Sequence record: PZ445442.1
Source: a phage
DNA: 64,000 nucleotides
Reading direction: 5' to 3' (one strand)
Position numbers and translations under genes: made by a program. Below the pieces are notes generated by a model. The model did not search any database, was not told the origin of the DNA, and saw only the letters and a list, made by a program, of their open reading frames with translations. The first letter of the stretch is position 1. Every line of letters starts with the position of its first letter. Shown here piece by piece: positions 1,925-62,897 of the stretch.

Positions 1925-2519
1925 GAGGTGCATCAAGTGCGGAGAGGTGAAAGACATCTCCGAGTTCTACAAACACCCAAAGATGTCTGACGGTCATCTT
2001 AATAAGTGCAAAGAGTGTTGCAAGAAGGCCAGCAGGGAGGCTGACCAATTTTCCCACGACTCTTCAGAAAAAGGTGTAATACGCGTGCTGTACAAGGCTC
2101 AAAAGTGCAACAGCAAGCAAAGAGGTCACCCGCCTCCGACTTACACCAAAAAAGAGTTTAAGGAGTGGCTATACCTAAACGGTTACAAAGAGTTGTATGA
2201 TCAGTGGGTAGCCAGCGGATACGACAAAAGGAAAAAGCCTTCTTGTGACAGGATAGATGATTTCAAAGGGTACTCTTTTGATAATATCCGTTTAACGACT
2301 TGGGGAGAAAATAAAGACAAGCAGACAGAGGATATTCTGTTGCATAGAAGCACCAGCGGTAGACGGTGTAAAAATGTAAGGAGGCTGGACATGAATGGCA
2401 ACGTTCTTAAAGAATGGGTATCCCACAATTCTTGTAGAAGAGAAACCGGAATATGTGTTGATTACTACATTCATGAAAAAATTCCAGCCCCAGATGGATA
2501 CCTCTACGAATACTTTTAG
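1896..2519 (+). CDS. Zn-ribbon protein with degenerate HNH_3-like motif (putative homing-endonuclease-like)
   Basis: N-terminal CxxC...CxxC pairs; C-terminal [23 protein letters not shown] resembles HNH_3 motif (HHIDGNxxNNxxxNLxLxTxxEN) with the His pair replaced. Confidence 0.4.
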
Positions 2520-2581
2520 CACCTAACTAACATAGCCCTGCCCGAAAGGGTGGGGCATTTTTGTATAAGGAGATCTGAAAA

Positions 2582-2998
2582 ATGACATTAGAAGATATCA
2601 TTGTTAAACCTGAGAACTATGACCAATACAACCTGTCAACTCAATCTGTAGACCTTGGATGCGCCACAGTTAGTGCGTGGCTGGTTAACGGAAAAGAGCT
2701 GGACAAGTGCTTAGAAGCTCACATGTCTGTTAACAAGTTTCTGGATGAAAATACTCACTGGCTGGAAGGTGCAGGCGTATATGCTTCATGGTTGGAGAGC
2801 ATGGGCTTTGACTATCAATCTGATGAAGGGTGGTGGAGCTATCTAGCTATCTGTCCAGAAACACTGCAATGCTTCATGAAATACTCTGAAGATCTTGAGT
2901 ACCGAGCGGTGGTTGATAGTGCTATTGCCCGTTATAGCCGTAAACCTTTTTCCCACGACATTAAAACTGTGGAAGAGTTTGTTGAAGTTTTCTGTTGA
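2582..2998 (+). CDS. hypothetical protein
   Basis: 138-aa ORF with AGGAG RBS. Confidence 0.5.
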   Translation: MTLEDIIVKPENYDQYNLSTQSVDLGCATVSAWLVNGKELDKCLEAHMSVNKFLDENTHWLEGAGVYASWLESMGFDYQSDEGWWSYLAICPETLQCFMKYSEDLEYRAVVDSAIARYSRKPFSHDIKTVEEFVEVFC

Positions 2999-3093
2999 CA
3001 CAGGTTGAAAGGTGTGCAATTATAACTTCATAGACGGGAGGACGTGATGAACGAAGAAAACTGGGATGTATAACTAACAGGAGGCCACTGCCC

Positions 3094-3291
3094 ATGATTT
3101 ATCGAATCCGTGTAAGAGAAGATGCACCAGGCTGTTACTTTGACTGGCGTGGGTGGTGGTTTCTCCACCCAATGGATGGACTCACAGATAGAATGCTGGA
3201 TGCTGCCCTTTATACAGATACCGATATAGAATATAATCTCTATCTGAAGGACGGTATAGATAACGGCCTGTTTGAAGCAATTCCTGTGTAA
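3094..3291 (+). CDS. hypothetical protein
   Basis: 65-aa ORF with AGGAGG RBS. Confidence 0.45.
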   Translation: MIYRIRVREDAPGCYFDWRGWWFLHPMDGLTDRMLDAALYTDTDIEYNLYLKDGIDNGLFEAIPV

Positions 3292-35615: not shown

Positions 35616-36089
35616 CTAGTCTACCTGAACCCAACCGCCTGATACTTTTTTAAACATTCTTTGGTTATCACTGCCTCGGAACGGTTTCTTGGTTGGTAAA
35701 TCTTTTACATACTTACCGTCAATGATGATATCAGCCAGTTTAAGAACATCACTAGAGATATGGTCAAATGTGAACCCAGTATATACAAGAATAGTTTTCT
35801 TGTCACCAAATTTTTCCTTAATTTTCTCCATCAGGCTAATAATATCTGGCTCATTATAGTATGCTAAGGGTTCTCCACCCAGCAGAGAGATACCGCACAC
35901 AGACGGGTTATCTAAATCTGACAAGATTTTTTGCAAGTCTTCTTCAGTGAACTCCCTCCCCTTATCTTTTGACCAAAATGCCTGATTAAAGCAACCAGGG
36001 CAAGCGTGTGGGCACCCAGATACCCACAAGGCAGTTCTAATACCTGGCCCTTCGGTGTAAGATATTTCTGTGTATCCGACAATGTTCAT
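35616..36089 (-). CDS. nrdG: anaerobic ribonucleotide reductase activating protein (radical SAM)
   Basis: GPGIRTALWVSGCPHACPGCFN with CxxxCxxC cluster. Confidence 0.85.
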   Translation of the reverse strand: MNIVGYTEISYTEGPGIRTALWVSGCPHACPGCFNQAFWSKDKGREFTEEDLQKILSDLDNPSVCGISLLGGEPLAYYNEPDIISLMEKIKEKFGDKKTILVYTGFTFDHISSDVLKLADIIIDGKYVKDLPTKKPFRGSDNQRMFKKVSGGWVQVD

Positions 36090-36202
36090 AGATACTCCGC
36101 ATCACATTTAGGGCAATGCCAAATAAAATCGTCTAGTGCCTTGCACCAACGAAGATTGCAACTACAGCCGCACTTGCAAATTTTATAAATACCTGATGAC
36201 AT
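36086..36202 (-). CDS. small Cys-rich Zn-ribbon-like protein (38 aa)
   Basis: MSSGIYKICKCGCSCNLRWCKALDDFIWHCPKCDAEYL; AGGAGG RBS; ATGA overlap with nrdG; below track cutoff. Confidence 0.4.
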   Translation of the reverse strand: MSSGIYKICKCGCSCNLRWCKALDDFIWHCPKCDAEYL

Positions 36203-36265: not shown

Positions 36266-37534
36266 TCAGCAACCACAACTTCCGTAGTGCTTAACTCGCT
36301 CGATAACTTCCGCTTGCTTACCTTTATTGTAAGGACGGGAGTTAGGACTGGAAAGATATCCAGACACTCTTCGGATCACTGAGATATATTGTTCATCGTG
36401 GCATCCGCACGCAGGGCAGCAGAACCCTTTAGCTGTTGCACTGAACTCACCAGAGAAACCACACTTGAGACATTTATCCACAGGTTGGTTAATACCAAAA
36501 TACATAATGTGTTTATACCCGAAGTCAACAAGAGCCTCTAAAGCATCCAGGTTGTTTTTCAGGTTAGGTGTCTCTACGTATCCGATGTTGCCACCAGAGG
36601 AGATCATAGCAAAACCTTCCTCATACTCCCACTTATCAAAAGGAGAGCTATTTATCCATACTGGCTGATGGAAACTGTTGGTGAGATATTCATGCTCGTG
36701 CTTCAACACTTCCGGATATTCACGATCCAGACAGGTTGCAGCTTTATAGCATAGACTCTCAGAAGGAGTGCCGTACAAGCTAAATGCTAGTCTACTTTCC
36801 TTCTTGTATCGCTCACAAGCATCTCTCATGTGCTGAAGGATTCTAAGAGCTAAAGCCTTGTCACCCTCTCTACCCAAAATCTGACAGGTTTCATACACAC
36901 CAATATACCCAATACTGATGGAAGCGTACCCGTCATAGAAGAGTTTATCAATACTCTCTTCAGGACCCAGGCGAGCAAGAGCGCCTTCACACCACATGAT
37001 AGGGTTCTGCCCTGCCTTGGTGCCTTTCAGACGGTTAACCCTTACAAGGTGAGCTTCATATGCCAAATCCAGATACTCGTCAAGAACGGCAAAGAAATCA
37101 ACACCTTCCGTCTTAGCTTTTGCCGCAATCATTGGTAGGTTAAGGCTAACAACACCCAAGTTGAATCTGCCGAGGTATTTCTCCTCACCTGTTTCCAAGT
37201 CATTGTATTTGCTAAGAAAACTCCGGCAACCCATGCTCGTTACTTTGCCATCTGTCGATCCTGTTACTTTACGATTTAGTGGAACAGAAACAAAGTCAGG
37301 ATAAATCCGCTCTGCAGAGCATTCCAGAGCTAATCGTTTCAAATCATAGTTAGGATCTCCAGGGTTCATGTTGACACCCTCTTCTAGGAAGAACAACACT
37401 TTAGGGAACACAGGTGTGATACGTTCTTCACCAAGACCCATTTTGTGGACTTTCAAGTAGTTTTTGGTAATCATTCTACCAAAGACTGAGGTGTCCAGAC
37501 CTAAACTTAATGTGATGAATGGAGTCTGCTGTCT
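36266..37534 (-). CDS. nrdD: anaerobic ribonucleotide reductase NrdD, exon 2 (C-terminal part; 5' boundary approximate)
   Basis: C-terminal Zn-binding cysteines and glycyl-radical motif RVSGY; frame stays open 93 nt upstream of annotated ATG to the HEG stop. Confidence 0.8.
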   Translation of the reverse strand, partial: RQQTPFITLSLGLDTSVFGRMITKNYLKVHKMGLGEERITPVFPKVLFFLEEGVNMNPGDPNYDLKRLALECSAERIYPDFVSVPLNRKVTGSTDGKVTSMGCRSFLSKYNDLETGEEKYLGRFNLGVVSLNLPMIAAKAKTEGVDFFAVLDEYLDLAYEAHLVRVNRLKGTKAGQNPIMWCEGALARLGPEESIDKLFYDGYASISIGYIGVYETCQILGREGDKALALRILQHMRDACERYKKESRLAFSLYGTPSESLCYKAATCLDREYPEVLKHEHEYLTNSFHQPVWINSSPFDKWEYEEGFAMISSGGNIGYVETPNLKNNLDALEALVDFGYKHIMYFGINQPVDKCLKCGFSGEFSATAKGFCCPACGCHDEQYISVIRRVSGYLSSPNSRPYNKGKQAEVIERVKHYGSCGC

Positions 37535-38325
37535 CCTCCCTGTGTTTCCACAGGGCCAGACTATCTCTTACTCTACTTCAATAAGATAATAACCCTTTAT
37601 TGTGAGATGCTTACCTTCGGCATTTCCTTCGATAGCCCTATGAACGTTACCTACGTTCAAGTTTAAGGCTTTTGCACAGGCATAGAGTGAAGGATATTCA
37701 CCCACCAAGGTTTTCCCTTTGTATGCCTGCACTTTCCTATAGCACTTACCTGGACAAAGTCCTGTTCGGAAAGCATGTCTCTTATTATCTTCCGGCAAAA
37801 CCCACTCTAGGTTAGACGGATGATCATTCAATGTATTGCCATCTTTATGATTCACTTCCCAGTTTTCAGGGTCTTCTGGGACATCCGGCAAACAATACAA
37901 GGCAACAACCCTTGAGGTTTGGATTCGAATCTTTTTACCTTTGTGGTTGAAAGAGTACATATAACGGCGTTTAACATGCTTGTTACCTTTTCCATAACCT
38001 CCCCACAATATTGGGTGTAGCATTCCACGTTTCCCGTATACGTTTCCAACCTCATCAATCACATAGTTTGATTCTTCACCATTAAGAATGATCTTTTTCA
38101 TAGAGCCTCTCCATTTCGAAGTTAGTATTTCAACTAACCCCTACACTACTTGGTTCAGAAATGTTTGTCAAGCATCTCTGCCTTTCGTTAGTCGTTACAA
38201 CCGTTCCAACTCCTGTAAGAACTAGTCACGGGATTGGCATAGCTTTCGCCTTAGCGTTCCCCGTTAGCCGGATTTACCGACCCCTCTTATGAGGTTAGGA
38301 GAGTTTTACAACGGCCAGTTTGTTA
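37535..38325 (-). mobile_element. putative group I intron in nrdD carrying an HNH homing endonuclease (boundaries approximate)
   Basis: Splits NrdD into two ORFs in the same orientation; GACUA (R-like, around 38223-38227), AAGAGAUAGUCU (S-like) right after HEG stop, CCCUGUG-GAAA-CACAGGG hairpin (P9-like), G before exon 2. Confidence 0.65.
37568..38101 (-). CDS. HNH homing endonuclease (HNH_3 type with NUMOD-like N-terminus and C-terminal HTH)
   Basis: WEVNHKDGNTLNDHPSNLEWVLPEDNKRH matches HNH_3 consensus; own RBS GGAGAGG. Confidence 0.85.
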   Translation of the reverse strand: MKKIILNGEESNYVIDEVGNVYGKRGMLHPILWGGYGKGNKHVKRRYMYSFNHKGKKIRIQTSRVVALYCLPDVPEDPENWEVNHKDGNTLNDHPSNLEWVLPEDNKRHAFRTGLCPGKCYRKVQAYKGKTLVGEYPSLYACAKALNLNVGNVHRAIEGNAEGKHLTIKGYYLIEVE

Positions 38326-39186
38326 ACCGTTGACAGAGGTTAACGTATTGATTTGATAGAGCAAAGTCTGCATGCTGTCAAATACATCTTTATCTGTCAT
38401 TTGCATTGCAACAGTTTCAGCATCCGGCAACCAATGTTCCTGGCAAAATTTAAGGTTCTTCTCATAGGTCGCTCCAGCATACTGTGCCAGATAATGATCA
38501 ATATGGCTCATAGTCTGACCTCCATATTGAGCACTAGCTACAGCACTAGAGATTTGGCTAAGGATTGTTGTTGCAACCCCTATTGACTTCGGCTTACTGA
38601 CATGGGCGTTACCAATGTTGAATCCGTTTTCCAACATATCTGGATAATTTACCAAACAACAGTTTGTTAACGGACTGATCAAGTAGTCAAGATCATGCAC
38701 ATGGATGAAGCCTTTATTGTGCTCTTCTGAAACACGGTCTGGCAGGATCTGTGTTGATGCAAGGTGTTTGCTAAGGATGCCTGCAAGCAGGTCACGATGA
38801 GTGTGTACATGATTAGTAGGCTTATTTGCGTTTTCTTTTGTAAATTCATCACAAGTTCGATCCAAGAAGCCACTAATATCTGCAAGCAGTTTTCCACCTG
38901 CCTCTCTGTTATTATCTCTTGTCTGTCTATACTGGATGTATTCTCTGGCTGCACATTTTAAACCCATATCCATAAGAGCATCTTCAACAAGGATATGGAT
39001 ATTTTTTACAGAGATCGTGCACTGGTCGGTTGGTAGATTGTTAGCCACAACTTCATTAACCGCGCAGGCGATCCGGTAAGCTTCTTCTTCAGTATGTCCA
39101 GACTCAAGTAAGGCGGACTCTGCCGCCTTGATCACCTTAATTCCGTTATAGAACTCTTCTCTACCGTCCCGTTTTACAACTTTCAC
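38323..39186 (-). CDS. nrdD: anaerobic ribonucleotide reductase NrdD, exon 1 (N-terminal ATP-cone part)
   Basis: MKVVKRDGREE ATP-cone start, HVHDLDY motif; stop lies just inside intron. Confidence 0.8.
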   Translation of the reverse strand: MKVVKRDGREEFYNGIKVIKAAESALLESGHTEEEAYRIACAVNEVVANNLPTDQCTISVKNIHILVEDALMDMGLKCAAREYIQYRQTRDNNREAGGKLLADISGFLDRTCDEFTKENANKPTNHVHTHRDLLAGILSKHLASTQILPDRVSEEHNKGFIHVHDLDYLISPLTNCCLVNYPDMLENGFNIGNAHVSKPKSIGVATTILSQISSAVASAQYGGQTMSHIDHYLAQYAGATYEKNLKFCQEHWLPDAETVAMQMTDKDVFDSMQTLLYQINTLTSVNG

Positions 39187-62027: not shown

Positions 62028-62086
62028 TGTAAACATGGTCTCCCACCTTTTCTGGCGGCTAAGGTGTAAAAGAAAGCCACCCAGTG

Positions 62087-62161
62087 CCCTGTTAGCTTAG
62101 TGGATAAAGCAGCGGCCTTCTAAGCCGTTGACACTGGTTCGAGTCCAGTACGGGGTGCCAA
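62087..62161 (+). tRNA. tRNA-Arg (anticodon UCU)
   Basis: Manual cloverleaf: acceptor GCCCTGT/ACGGGGT, D-arm GCTT/AAGC, anticodon loop CTTCTAA, T-arm ACTGG-TTCGAGT-CCAGT, CCA encoded. Confidence 0.8.
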
Positions 62162-62165
62162 ATTG

Positions 62166-62252
62166 GGGAGTTATCCCGTAGGGGTAGCGGTGTAGACTGT
62201 AAATCTATTGTCATTGCGACTCGGGTGGTTCGACTCCACCACTCCCCACCAA
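62166..62252 (+). tRNA. tRNA-Tyr (anticodon GUA), type II with long variable arm
   Basis: Acceptor GGGGAGT/ACTCCCC, anticodon stem GTAGA/TCTAT, loop CTGTAAA, variable arm hairpin, T-arm GGTGG-TTCGACT-CCACC, CCA encoded. Confidence 0.75.
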
Positions 62253-62366
62253 ATTTATATTTTTAAATGCATAAATCATACAGATAATGACATTGATATT
62301 TATCGTCGTTTATACTAGTCACTAACTGCTCGAAAATCAGTGTCATTATCAGTGTAATTTATAAAG

Positions 62367-62457
62367 GAGGGTAGGGAGCAATGGTGCTCAAGCGGTCTTG
62401 AAAACCGTCCCGTTGAGGATGACTCGATGATGGTTCGATTCCATTACTCTCCGCCAC
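62367..62457 (+). tRNA. tRNA-Ser (anticodon UGA), type II
   Basis: Acceptor GGAGGGT/ACTCTCC, anticodon stem GCGGT/ACCGT, loop CTTGAAA, long variable arm, T-arm GATGG-TTCGATT-CCATT, CCA encoded. Confidence 0.7.
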
Positions 62458-62554
62458 ATTGTTGACCTTGTAATTAAGCGAAAGCCGGAAGCAGAACCGG
62501 ATTATCAAATGTTACAGTCGTCATCGCCGACTAGCCACATGGTCAACATATTGC

Positions 62555-62653
62555 GCTAGGTAAGCCCTTTGGCAAGGGCGAGGATTTTTAATCCTGAAAA
62601 TAGACGAGGTAGTCGTTGAATACATAGGTGGTTCGATTCCATCACCTAGCACC
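62555..62653 (+). tRNA. atypical tRNA-like element (possible tRNA-Lys UUU with about 30-nt insertion in variable region; may be non-functional)
   Basis: Acceptor GCTAGGT/ACCTAGC 7/7, D-arm GCCC-TTTGGCAA-GGGC, T-arm GGTGG-TTCGATT-CCATC, but the anticodon arm is irregular and the element is about 97 nt. Confidence 0.4.
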
Positions 62654-62657
62654 TTTT

Positions 62658-62733
62658 GCTGATGTAGCACAATTGGCAGTGCAATTGATTTGTAATCAAT
62701 AGGTTGCAGGTTCAAGTCCTGCCATCAGCACCA
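62658..62733 (+). tRNA. tRNA-Thr (anticodon UGU)
   Basis: Acceptor GCTGATG/CATCAGC, D-arm GCAC/GTGC, anticodon stem ATTGA/TCAAT, loop TTTGTAA, T-arm GCAGG-TTCAAGT-CCTGC, CCA. Confidence 0.8.
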
Positions 62734-62734
62734 T

Positions 62735-62809
62735 GGCCCTGTAGCTGGAAGGTTCAAGCAAGCGACTCATAATCGCCAGACGGTGGTTCAATTCCACCCA
62801 GGGCCACCA
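62735..62809 (+). tRNA. tRNA-Met or tRNA-Ile2 (anticodon CAU)
   Basis: Acceptor GGCCCTG/CAGGGCC, anticodon loop CTCATAA, T-arm GGTGG-TTCAATT-CCACC, CCA. Confidence 0.75.
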
Positions 62810-62820
62810 AATAATAAATA

Positions 62821-62897
62821 CTCCGCGTAGCTCAGCTTGGTAGAGCGCCTGATTTGGGATCAGGAGGTCGAGTGTTCGAATCACTCCGTGGAGACCA
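62821..62897 (+). tRNA. tRNA-Pro (anticodon UGG)
   Basis: Acceptor CTCCGCG/CGTGGAG (C1-G72), D-arm GCTC/GAGC, anticodon stem CCTGA/TCAGG, loop TTTGGGA, T-arm GAGTG-TTCGAAT-CACTC, CCA. Confidence 0.8.

What the first reader, a model, noticed from the sequence alone, without database searches (positions are those of the whole stretch)
37535..38325. nrdD interrupted by a group I intron carrying an HNH homing endonuclease
The anaerobic RNR catalytic subunit is encoded as two same-strand ORFs (ATP-cone half 38323-39186; glycyl-radical half 36266-37474) separated by about 790 nt containing an HNH_3 endonuclease with its own RBS. The intervening RNA has GACUA (R-like) about 100 nt into the insert, AAGAGAUAGUCU (S-like, complementary to R) immediately after the endonuclease stop, then a CCCUGUG-GAAA-CACAGGG hairpin (P9-like) and G residues before the downstream exon. 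The downstream reading frame is open through the last about 30 codons before the annotated ATG (…RQQTPFITLSLGLD…), consistent with splicing that restores one NrdD. T4 nrdD is a known intron-containing gene, but this intron/endonuclease combination needs verification.
Basis: partly seen in the sequence, partly recalled or inferred. Interest (0 to 1): 0.7.

Follow-up and report, generated by a model that had tools for sequence, protein, structure and literature searches.

The report
Mobile group I intron in nrdD
The anaerobic ribonucleotide reductase gene of this rV5-like E. coli phage is interrupted by a self-splicing-type (group I) intron that carries its own HNH homing-endonuclease gene; it is real, but it is an ordinary mobile element whose boundaries are already annotated in the public record.

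Summary
The window is Escherichia phage EmilHeitz (Vequintavirus, MZ501062.1). Its nrdD gene on the minus strand is split by a 797-nt group I intron, window 38325..37529. A 177-aa I-HmuI-family HNH endonuclease ORF (38101..37568) fills the P8 loop.

Evidence:
- Related phages have an intronless allele (about 76 records), a 257-nt ORF-less intron (14) or this intron with the endonuclease (28), all at the same site.
- The conceptual spliced protein (…SVNG|QTPF…) is exactly GenBank QXV78087.1.
- A complete P1–P9 fold has U·G at the 5' splice site and a terminal G.
- RNAfold recovers that fold on its own (z −3.7 and −7.8).
- Covariation across 35 related phage introns supports it: 94% of cells paired against about 41% for slid controls, and 65 of 71 pairs with compensatory changes.

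Rfam's group I model scores only 27–30 bits (gathering score 50). The likely reason is two extra hairpins between P3 and P4, which the classical SPO1 DNA-polymerase intron also has.

The T4 nrdD intron sits 32 nt upstream and carries a different (GIY-YIG) endonuclease.

Splicing and nuclease activity are inferred, not shown.

The parts
38326..39186 (-). nrdD exon 1 (GTG start overlapping the glutaredoxin stop; ATP-cone plus the N-terminal part of NrdD; ends ...AAC GGU)
   Evidence: ORF. Pfam ATP-cone matches residues 2-91. The boundary comes from alignment to intronless rV5.
37529..38325 (-). Group I intron, 797 nt. It begins UAACAAACUGG, so an in-frame UAA is its first codon. It ends ...GGAGACAG with the terminal G at 37529.
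   Evidence: Searches give the boundaries. Searches give the covariance-model matches. Searches give the fold and covariation.
36266..37528 (-). nrdD exon 2 (starts CAG ACU CCA = QTP...; glycyl-radical domain and C-terminal Zn-ribbon; stop codon included)
37568..38101 (-). Homing-endonuclease ORF, 177 aa, I-HmuI family HNH. It occupies the whole P8 loop.
   Evidence: Pfam HNH_3. A profile of the homologues matches PDB 1U3E at E 5e-11 over residues 8-161. PHROG 59. The HNH residues are invariant among homologues.
38309..38332 (-). P1. Exon CAACGGU (38332-38326) pairs with the intron guide GCCGUUG (38315-38309), with U38326·G38315 at the splice site. CUG 38318-38316 can pair with exon-2 CAG 37528-37526 (P10, 3 bp).
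   Evidence: Read from the sequence. There is a compensatory change against AlexBoehm (exon C->A with guide G->U). P1 covaries in the family (helix 1).
38298..38303 (-). P3 5' strand, CUCUCC
   Evidence: It pairs with GGAGAG 38112-38107. AlexBoehm has CUCUGC/GCAGGG, a double change. Helix 2 is 97% paired, with 6 of 6 pairs showing compensatory changes.
38267..38294 (-). Two small hairpins between P3 and J3/4-P4: CCUC-AUAA-GAGG, then GUCGG-UAAAU-CCGGC
   Evidence: Helices 3 and 4. They are absent from the T4 nrdD intron and present in the SPO1 intron.
38199..38264 (-). P4-P5-P6 domain. P4 is ACGGGG/UCCCGU. P5 carries a GAAA-tetraloop-receptor-like motif, GCUAAG...UAUGC. P6/P6a follow.
38189..38193 (-). 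P7 5' strand, GACUA (the 'R' element)
   Evidence: It pairs with UAGUC 37563-37559. 94% of cells are paired in the family.
38118..38180 (-). P7.1 (38180-38156) and P7.2 (38141-38118), the IA-type peripheral hairpins
38107..38112 (-). P3 3' strand, GGAGAG. It also serves as the Shine-Dalgarno sequence of the endonuclease ORF (AUG at 38101).
   Evidence: The same arrangement is found in relatives whose endonuclease is 62-65% identical.
38100..38105 (-). P8 5' strand, CUCUAU (includes the AU of the start codon). Its partner is GUAGAG 37576-37571, the last two sense codons.
37559..37570 (-). J8/7 and P7 3' strand, UAAGAGAUAGUC (the 'S' element; the UAA is the endonuclease stop codon)
37538..37555 (-). 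P9 hairpin, CCCUGUG-GAAA-CACAGGG
   Evidence: (helix 14). U-A changes to C-G relative to AlexBoehm.

Best explanation
This is a mobile, IA2-type group I intron of the SPO1-like structural variety. It sits between codons Gly287 and Gln288 of phage nrdD.

Inferred from the RNA anatomy: the nrdD pre-mRNA folds into the P1-P9 ribozyme. An external guanosine attacks after U38326, which is held in P1 by a U·G pair with the intron's guide sequence. The freed exon-1 3'-OH then attacks after the terminal G37529, joining ...AAC GGU to CAG ACU... and restoring one 707-aa NrdD.

Shown directly by the sequence: unspliced RNA cannot give full-length protein, because the intron starts with an in-frame UAA.

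Inferred by homology to I-HmuI: the 177-aa ORF in the P8 loop encodes an HNH endonuclease that probably nicks intronless nrdD alleles close to the insertion site during mixed infection. Recombinational repair would then copy the intron and the adjacent exon bases into the recipient.

The ORF's ribosome-binding site is the 3' strand of P3, and its AUG lies in P8. Ribozyme folding and endonuclease translation therefore probably compete. This is an inference.
For: The window is 100% identical to phage EmilHeitz.

Presence/absence at one site: 28 records have the intron with the endonuclease, 14 have a 257-nt ORF-less intron, and about 76 are intronless.

Boundaries are fixed by alignment to rV5 and by an exact match of the spliced product to QXV78087.1.

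Rfam RF00028 gives a full-length match to the ORF-less copy (29.8 bits, E 1.4e-4) and a match to the 3' half in the window (27.1 bits, E 1.2e-4).

The RNAfold minimum-energy structure of the ORF-less copy reproduces P1, P3, P4-P6, P7.1, P7.2, P8 and P9 (z -3.7). So does the structure of the window's intron with the ORF interior removed (z -7.8).

A covariance model built on that fold finds the proven T4 nrdD intron (E 2e-10), the SPO1 intron (E 1.5e-7) and dozens of phage introns. In 35 of these, 94% of cells pair against about 41% for slid controls, and 65 of 71 pairs show compensatory changes. P7 is 94% paired.

All intron-bearing alleles examined (4 of 4) have U at position -1 (GGT). All 7 intronless alleles have GGG.

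The intron with its endonuclease is 97-100% identical across records whose whole nrdD region (exons plus intron) is 94-98% identical.

The endonuclease matches Pfam HNH_3. A profile of its homologues matches I-HmuI 1U3E at E 5e-11, nearly end to end.

Endonuclease homologues of 62-65% identity sit in the same intron at the same nrdD site in other phage contigs.

I-HmuI-type enzymes are nicking homing endonucleases of phage introns (PMC3428280).
Against: No experimental evidence of splicing or nuclease activity was found for this or any Vequintavirus intron.

Rfam scores are below the gathering score: 27-30 bits against 50.

P10 is only 3 bp.

The covariation alignment was fitted to the model, so pair counts lean towards the structure.

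The comparison of intron identity with regional identity comes from BLAST summaries, not from a phylogeny, and the regional figure includes the intron.

A search of metagenome contigs for the spliced junction found nothing, but that test had little power because only 2 related contigs were present.
Confidence: 0.9

Rival explanations
1. The gene is split and never spliced. A free-standing HNH endonuclease gene has inserted into nrdD, and the two halves are translated separately and assemble after translation, as reported for Aeromonas phage Aeh1 nrdA split by mobE.
For: Two separately callable ORFs exist, and the downstream one has an ATG at 37474. Many GenBank records annotate two nrdD CDSs. 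An unspliced HNH insertion and the Aeh1 precedent are described in PMC7344957.
Against: The insert has a complete, covarying group I fold.

A 257-nt version with no endonuclease ORF occupies the same site in 14 phages and keeps that fold.

Starting at ATG 37474 would drop 18 conserved residues (QTPFITLSLGLDTSVFGR) that align with T4 NrdD.

U at -1 and the terminal G are exactly where splicing needs them.
Confidence: 0.04
2. The intron is a decaying or cofactor-dependent ribozyme. It no longer self-splices efficiently, so nrdD is a pseudogene or poorly expressed in intron-bearing phages.
For: The Rfam score is sub-threshold. A 534-nt ORF is inserted in P8. P10 is weak. nrdD may be dispensable under aerobic laboratory growth (my assumption).
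Against: The core helices are intact, and the HEG-plus and ORF-less lineages differ by compensatory changes.

Both exons remain open and about 95% identical to intronless alleles.

The low Rfam score has another explanation: the two hairpins between P3 and P4. All relatives tested that have those hairpins score below 50 bits, while canonical relatives and the T4 intron pass.

The SPO1 intron shares this architecture and is known to self-splice (my knowledge of Goodrich-Blair et al. 1990; not checked here).
Confidence: 0.05
3. The insert is an intein or another protein-level insertion.
For: Inteins are common in ribonucleotide reductase genes (general knowledge).
Against: The insert begins with an in-frame stop codon. 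The endonuclease ORF has its own start and ribosome-binding site. No Hint/intein domain was found.
Confidence: 0.005

Closest known systems
Bacillus phage SPO1 gene 31 (DNA polymerase) group I intron encoding I-HmuI (and its SP82/I-HmuII and Bastille/I-BasI relatives)
   Same: The endonuclease family and size are the same: a profile match to 1U3E at E 5e-11, 177 aa against 174 aa. In both, the ORF starts just after the 3' strand of P3, in the region that would form P8. The ribozyme layout matches too: no P2, P3 followed by extra hairpins before J3/4-P4, then P7.1 and P7.2.
   Different: The host gene differs (nrdD, not DNA polymerase), and so does the host (an E. coli myovirus). RNA similarity is only 21 bits with my model, and protein identity is low. 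Target specificity must therefore differ. SPO1's second hairpin region is much larger.
Phage T4 nrdD (sunY) group I intron encoding I-TevII
   Same: The host gene is the same, and so is the conserved region of the protein. Both have an IA2-type core with P7.1/P7.2 and no P2. The intron 5' ends are similar (U|UAAC...) and so is the J1/3 UAAAA.
   Different: The insertion site is 32 nt upstream, inside a Tyr codon. The T4 endonuclease is GIY-YIG and, from the annotated coordinates, lies downstream of the 212-nt ribozyme core that my model matches, not in P8. T4 lacks the two hairpins between P3 and P4 and scores 105 bits in Rfam against 27-30 here.
ORF-less nrdD intron of Vequintavirus phages such as AlexBoehm (MZ501048)
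   Same: The insertion site and fold are identical. The first 139 nt are 86% identical.
   Different: It is 257 nt and has no endonuclease. P7.1 is short, and P8 is a plain 30-nt hairpin. The guide sequence and exon differ by a compensatory pair. Exon 2 starts CAA rather than CAG.
Second nrdD intron of phages JEP1, C2 and phita32
   Same: The host gene is the same, and it also carries an HNH endonuclease ORF.
   Different: It sits at a different site (ATG GGT | TGC, window 37229|37228, which is empty in this window). It has the canonical layout with P3 next to J3/4. The ORF-less copy scores 70.5 bits in Rfam.

Membership tests
Group I intron (Rfam RF00028) | P1 pairs the 5' exon end with an internal guide sequence, with a U·G wobble at the splice site | tested here: met
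   Exon CAACGGU pairs with intron GCCGUUG, with U38326·G38315. There is a compensatory change in AlexBoehm. Helix 1 covaries. All intron-bearing alleles examined have T at -1, and 7 of 7 intronless alleles have G.
Group I intron (Rfam RF00028) | The intron ends in a guanosine (omega-G) just before exon 2 | tested here: met
   G37529. The boundary is fixed by the intronless allele and by the GenBank product. The ORF-less copy also ends in G.
Group I intron (Rfam RF00028) | A conserved core: the P3/P7 pseudoknot, the P4-P6 domain, P8 and P9, in the canonical order | tested here: met
   All elements were located and recovered by minimum-energy folding. 94% of cells pair, and 65 of 71 pairs show compensatory changes, in 35 relatives. 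P7 is 94% paired. The alignment was fitted to the model, which favours the structure.
Group I intron (Rfam RF00028) | The score reaches Rfam's gathering threshold (50 bits) | tested here: not met
   There is no hit at the gathering score in the window. Scores are 27.1 bits in the window and 29.8 bits for the ORF-less copy. Relatives with the same two extra hairpins score at most 45 bits or are missed, while canonical introns and T4 pass. The shortfall therefore reflects this structural variety and the ORF in P8.
Group I intron (Rfam RF00028) | Guanosine-dependent self-splicing | not testable with these tools
   This needs RT-PCR or in-vitro splicing. No report was found.
Subgroup IA2 (T4 td/nrdD, Twort, SPO1 type) | P7.1 and P7.2 hairpins lie between P7 and the 3' strand of P3 | tested here: met
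   They are at 38180-38156 and 38141-38118. Helices 10 and 11 covary. They align to the T4 nrdD intron. That these hairpins define the subgroup is from my knowledge of Michel and Westhof 1990.
Subgroup IA2 (T4 td/nrdD, Twort, SPO1 type) | The 5' strand of P3 is directly followed by J3/4 and P4 | tested here: not met
   Two hairpins (38294-38267) intervene. They are deleted in the alignment to T4, present in SPO1, and present in 94 of the 124 loci held at that point that carry the P4-P5 motif. I could not find what the literature calls them.
HNH homing endonuclease, I-HmuI type | An HNH (beta-beta-alpha-metal) nuclease motif with conserved His/Asn residues | tested here: met
   Pfam HNH_3 scores 29.4 bits against a cut-off of 24.8. 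N84, H85, N97, N106 and H109 are invariant in 8 homologues.
HNH homing endonuclease, I-HmuI type | The whole-protein architecture matches I-HmuI: an N-terminal DNA-binding sheet, the HNH motif, and a C-terminal helix-turn-helix/NUMOD-like domain | tested here: met
   The profile against PDB 1U3E gives E 5e-11, covering residues 8-161 of 178 against 8-159 of 174. Pfam I-HmuI_NUMOD-like alone scores 18.4 bits, below its cut-off of 27.
HNH homing endonuclease, I-HmuI type | Site-specific single-strand nicking near the intron insertion site | not testable with these tools
   This is a property of I-HmuI, I-HmuII, I-BasI and I-TwoI (PMC3428280). It is inferred here by homology only.
Mobile (homing) intron | Presence/absence polymorphism at one precise site among close relatives, with the element less diverged than its host gene | tested here: met
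   There are 28 HEG-plus, 14 ORF-less and about 76 intronless records. The intron is 97-100% identical where the whole nrdD region is 94-98% identical. Exon bases next to the intron (GGT, CAG) travel with it.
NrdD (class III ribonucleotide reductase, catalytic subunit) | A continuous match to the family model across the exon junction, with ATP-cone and glycyl-radical domains | tested here: met
   Pfam NRDD positions 1-562 match in one stretch over residues 118-701 (E 5e-160), together with Gly_radical and ATP-cone. The product is 45% identical to T4 NrdD across the site.

The most novel reading that the evidence does not exclude
Translation of the endonuclease may be gated by ribozyme folding. 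Its Shine-Dalgarno sequence (GGAG) is the 3' strand of P3, and its AUG and last codons form the P8 stem. The enzyme could then be made only from RNA that has not formed, or has lost, the catalytic core. This arrangement is kept in relatives whose endonuclease is only 62-65% identical.

A second, weaker reading: the 'two hairpins between P3 and P4' layout (SPO1-like, and the majority of the IMG/VR loci I fetched) may be a distinct, under-catalogued structural subclass that Rfam's model misses at its gathering score.
Probability: 0.35. Interest if true: 0.3.

Novelty: already known. Interest (0 to 1): 0.15.

Why it matters
It matters mainly for correct annotation. Many Vequintavirus records list nrdD as two or three separate genes plus a 'hypothetical protein'. 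The gene is in fact one, interrupted by one or two mobile introns.

Such elements and the exon bases they drag along distort phage phylogenies, a point the BASEL authors make.

There are two practical by-products. Rfam's group I model at its gathering score misses this SPO1-like variety of phage introns. And the endonuclease is an uncharacterised I-HmuI-family enzyme that presumably has a new target sequence in nrdD.

Tried and rejected
- An Rfam search of the whole window at gathering score found only tRNAs.
- Literature searches for an rV5/Vequintavirus nrdD intron found nothing specific. The rV5 paper mentions only terminase introns.
- An automatic test of P3 complementarity, comparing each sequence with itself and with the others, was uninformative. 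My hairpin segmentation failed for several sequences and the A/U-rich background was high: diagonal mean 5.4 against 4.3 off the diagonal. I replaced it with the covariance-model alignment and the count of structure pairs.
- MAFFT misaligned the P7.1-P8 region of the ORF-deleted intron, so that alignment was not used.
- I searched for a published name for the two hairpins between P3 and P4 ('P3.1/P3.2', and reviews). Nothing was found.
- An IMG/VR scan for intronless alleles gave 0 hits.
- A metagenome scan for the spliced junction (GGT|CAR) gave 0 hits. A relaxed control pattern found only two related contigs, both intronless with GGG|CAA, so the negative has little weight.
- My first guess at the T4 nrdD coordinates was wrong.
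- The intein reading was rejected because of the in-frame stop codon.

Full report
**Identity of the window.** The nrdD region is 100% identical to Escherichia phage EmilHeitz (MZ501062.1; Vequintavirus, BASEL collection). It is 94-98% identical to about 120 other rV5-like phage records.

**Check of the observation.** On the minus strand there are three ORFs:
- a 287-codon ORF (39186..38323, GTG start) with an ATP-cone;
- a 177-codon ORF (38101..37568);
- a 402-codon ORF (37474..36266) with the glycyl-radical domain.

The middle ORF matches Pfam HNH_3 above its cut-off. AAGAGAUAGUCU overlaps the ORF's UAA stop, and CCCUGUG-GAAA-CACAGGG is at 37555-37538.

Two details needed correction. First, the 3' splice site is after G37529, not 37535:
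- The intronless rV5 gene reads AAC GGG CAA ACT CCA at this point.
- The conceptual product with SVNG|QTPF is exactly GenBank QXV78087.1, whereas SVNG|RQQTPF is not on record.

Second, the GACUA about 100 nt into the insert belongs to P6. The P7 strand is the GACUA at intron nt 133-137.

**What it is.** Three allele classes occupy the same site among Vequintavirus records:
- the intron with the endonuclease gene (28 records);
- a 257-nt intron without any ORF (14 records, for example AlexBoehm);
- no insert (about 76 records).

Rfam's group I model matches the ORF-less copy over its full length (29.8 bits, E 1.4e-4). It also matches the 3' half of the window's intron (27.1 bits, E 1.2e-4). Both are below the gathering score of 50.

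I derived a complete secondary structure for the RNA:
- P1 has U38326·G38315 at the splice site.
- P3 is CUCUCC/GGAGAG.
- Two small hairpins follow P3.
- Then come P4, P5 (which carries a GAAA-receptor-like GCUAAG/UAUGC motif) and P6.
- P7 is GACUA/UAGUC.
- P7.1 and P7.2 follow P7.
- P8 has a loop that is the entire endonuclease ORF.
- P9 has a GAAA loop.
- The intron ends in G37529.

RNAfold recovers nearly all of these helices without constraints. It does so for the ORF-less intron (z -3.7) and for the window's intron with the ORF interior removed (z -7.8).

The EmilHeitz and AlexBoehm versions differ by compensatory changes in P1, P3, the second hairpin, P6a and P9.

A scan of IMG/VR for the P4-P5 motif returned more than 120 phage loci. 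A covariance model built on the fold matched dozens of them. In 35 full-length relatives, 94% of cells form standard pairs against about 41% when partners are slid. In that set, 65 of 71 pairs show changes on both sides, and no shuffle out of 500 reaches the observed values. P7, tested separately as the pseudoknot, is 94% paired. That alignment was fitted to the model, which favours the structure, but the margin over the controls is large.

**Why Rfam under-scores it.** The proven T4 nrdD intron scores 105 bits. Relatives that share the two hairpins between P3 and P4 score 27-45 bits or are not reported. Canonical relatives in the same loci score 61-98 bits. In the alignment of T4 to my model, the two hairpins are simply deleted. 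The classical SPO1 DNA-polymerase intron has the same layout: P3, then GAA, a hairpin, GUGU, one or more hairpins, GCUAA and P4. So this is a known variety of intron and not a new one. I could not find how the literature names those hairpins.

**The endonuclease.** A profile of the eight homologues found matches I-HmuI (PDB 1U3E) at E 5e-11, nearly end to end. The His and Asn residues of the HNH motif are invariant. I-HmuI and its relatives are nicking enzymes of phage introns that cut within a few nucleotides of the insertion site (PMC3428280).

Homologues that are 62-65% identical lie in the same intron at the same nrdD site in other phage contigs. Those contigs have the nrdA-nrdB-grx-nrdD-nrdG gene order.

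**Evidence for mobility.**
- The intron with its endonuclease is 97-100% identical in records whose whole nrdD region is 94-98% identical.
- All seven intronless alleles examined read AACGGG|CAAAC.
- Alleles with the intron and endonuclease read AACGGT|CAGAC, and ORF-less alleles read AACGGT|CAAAC.
- The T at -1 is what P1 needs for the U·G pair. CAG extends P10 to 3 bp. These flanking bases travel with the intron.

**Mechanism.** The fold, the boundaries, the in-frame UAA at the start of the intron and the presence/absence polymorphism are shown. Two-step guanosine-initiated splicing, nicking of intronless alleles, and repair-mediated copying are inferred from the families involved.

The endonuclease's Shine-Dalgarno sequence is the 3' strand of P3, and its AUG lies in P8. 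Translation and ribozyme folding therefore probably compete, which is also an inference.

**Rivals.**
- A never-spliced split gene, as in Aeh1 nrdA/mobE, is unlikely. The ORF-less 257-nt version keeps the covarying fold, and independent initiation at ATG 37474 would drop 18 conserved residues.
- A decayed ribozyme is unlikely for the reasons given above about Rfam scores.
- An intein is excluded by the in-frame stop codon.

It interrupts the same gene, but the site is 32 nt upstream, inside a Tyr codon. It carries a GIY-YIG endonuclease (I-TevII), and its ORF lies outside P8. The closest known composite element is SPO1's intron with I-HmuI.

**Novelty.** The depositors annotated this CDS as a two-piece join with exactly these boundaries, and the ORF as a 'putative homing endonuclease'. 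Their paper says intron boundaries were set by comparative genomics. The finding is therefore correct but already known at the annotation level. The ribozyme structure and any activity remain undescribed, as far as I could find. Interest is low.

Noticed in passing
window 62555-62653 (+), within the tRNA cluster at 62086-62897: This is an odd tRNA-like gene. Rfam tRNA scores 35.5 bits, with a 26-nt insertion at the variable-arm position and an anticodon loop reading UUUUUAA, which gives UUU (Lys) in Rfam's register. ARAGORN calls it 'tRNA-???' of 99 nt with a 4-base anticodon. A long variable arm on a Lys-type anticodon would be unusual.
   Followed up: partly
window 38974-39186 (-): The GenBank record starts nrdD at an internal ATG (636 aa). 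The ORF from GTG 39186, which overlaps the glutaredoxin stop, gives 707 aa with a complete ATP-cone (Pfam residues 2-91), as annotated in rV5. The deposited start is probably too far downstream.
   Followed up: partly
window 37228-37229 (-); L003 about 2468-3217; L119 2246-2485: JEP1, C2 and phita32 carry a second nrdD intron with another HNH ORF. It is canonical IA2, and the ORF-less copy in L119 scores 70.5 bits in Rfam. It is inserted at ATG GGT | TGC, just before the Cys codon of the MGCRS stretch. That site is empty in this window.
   Followed up: partly
L133 1653-2273, L134 1002-1622 (Logan contigs): In more distant phages, nrdD has a further HNH-containing insertion after about codon 171. 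Counting the T4 site 32 nt upstream of this one, phage nrdD has at least four distinct intron or endonuclease insertion sites.
   Followed up: no
loci L005-L124 (IMG/VR): Of the 124 loci held at that point that carry the P4-P5 motif ACGGGGAA...AAUCCCGU, 94 have the 'GCUA|ACGGGG' context that goes with two hairpins between P3 and P4. Several contigs hold 3-5 such introns (for example L046 and L071). Members of this variety fall below Rfam's gathering score.
   Followed up: partly
phage records MG0656xx: Nineteen INPHARED records named 'Campylobacter phage', with host given as C. jejuni, match this nrdD region at 90% identity or more (megablast). They look like Vequintavirus genomes, so the host labels look doubtful.
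   Followed up: no
window 36086-36202 (-): A 38-aa Cys-rich ORF (KICKCGCSC...WHCPKC) lies between nrdD and the nrdG activase gene (35616-36089). It is annotated as hypothetical in the relatives. It may be a small zinc-ribbon protein.
   Followed up: no
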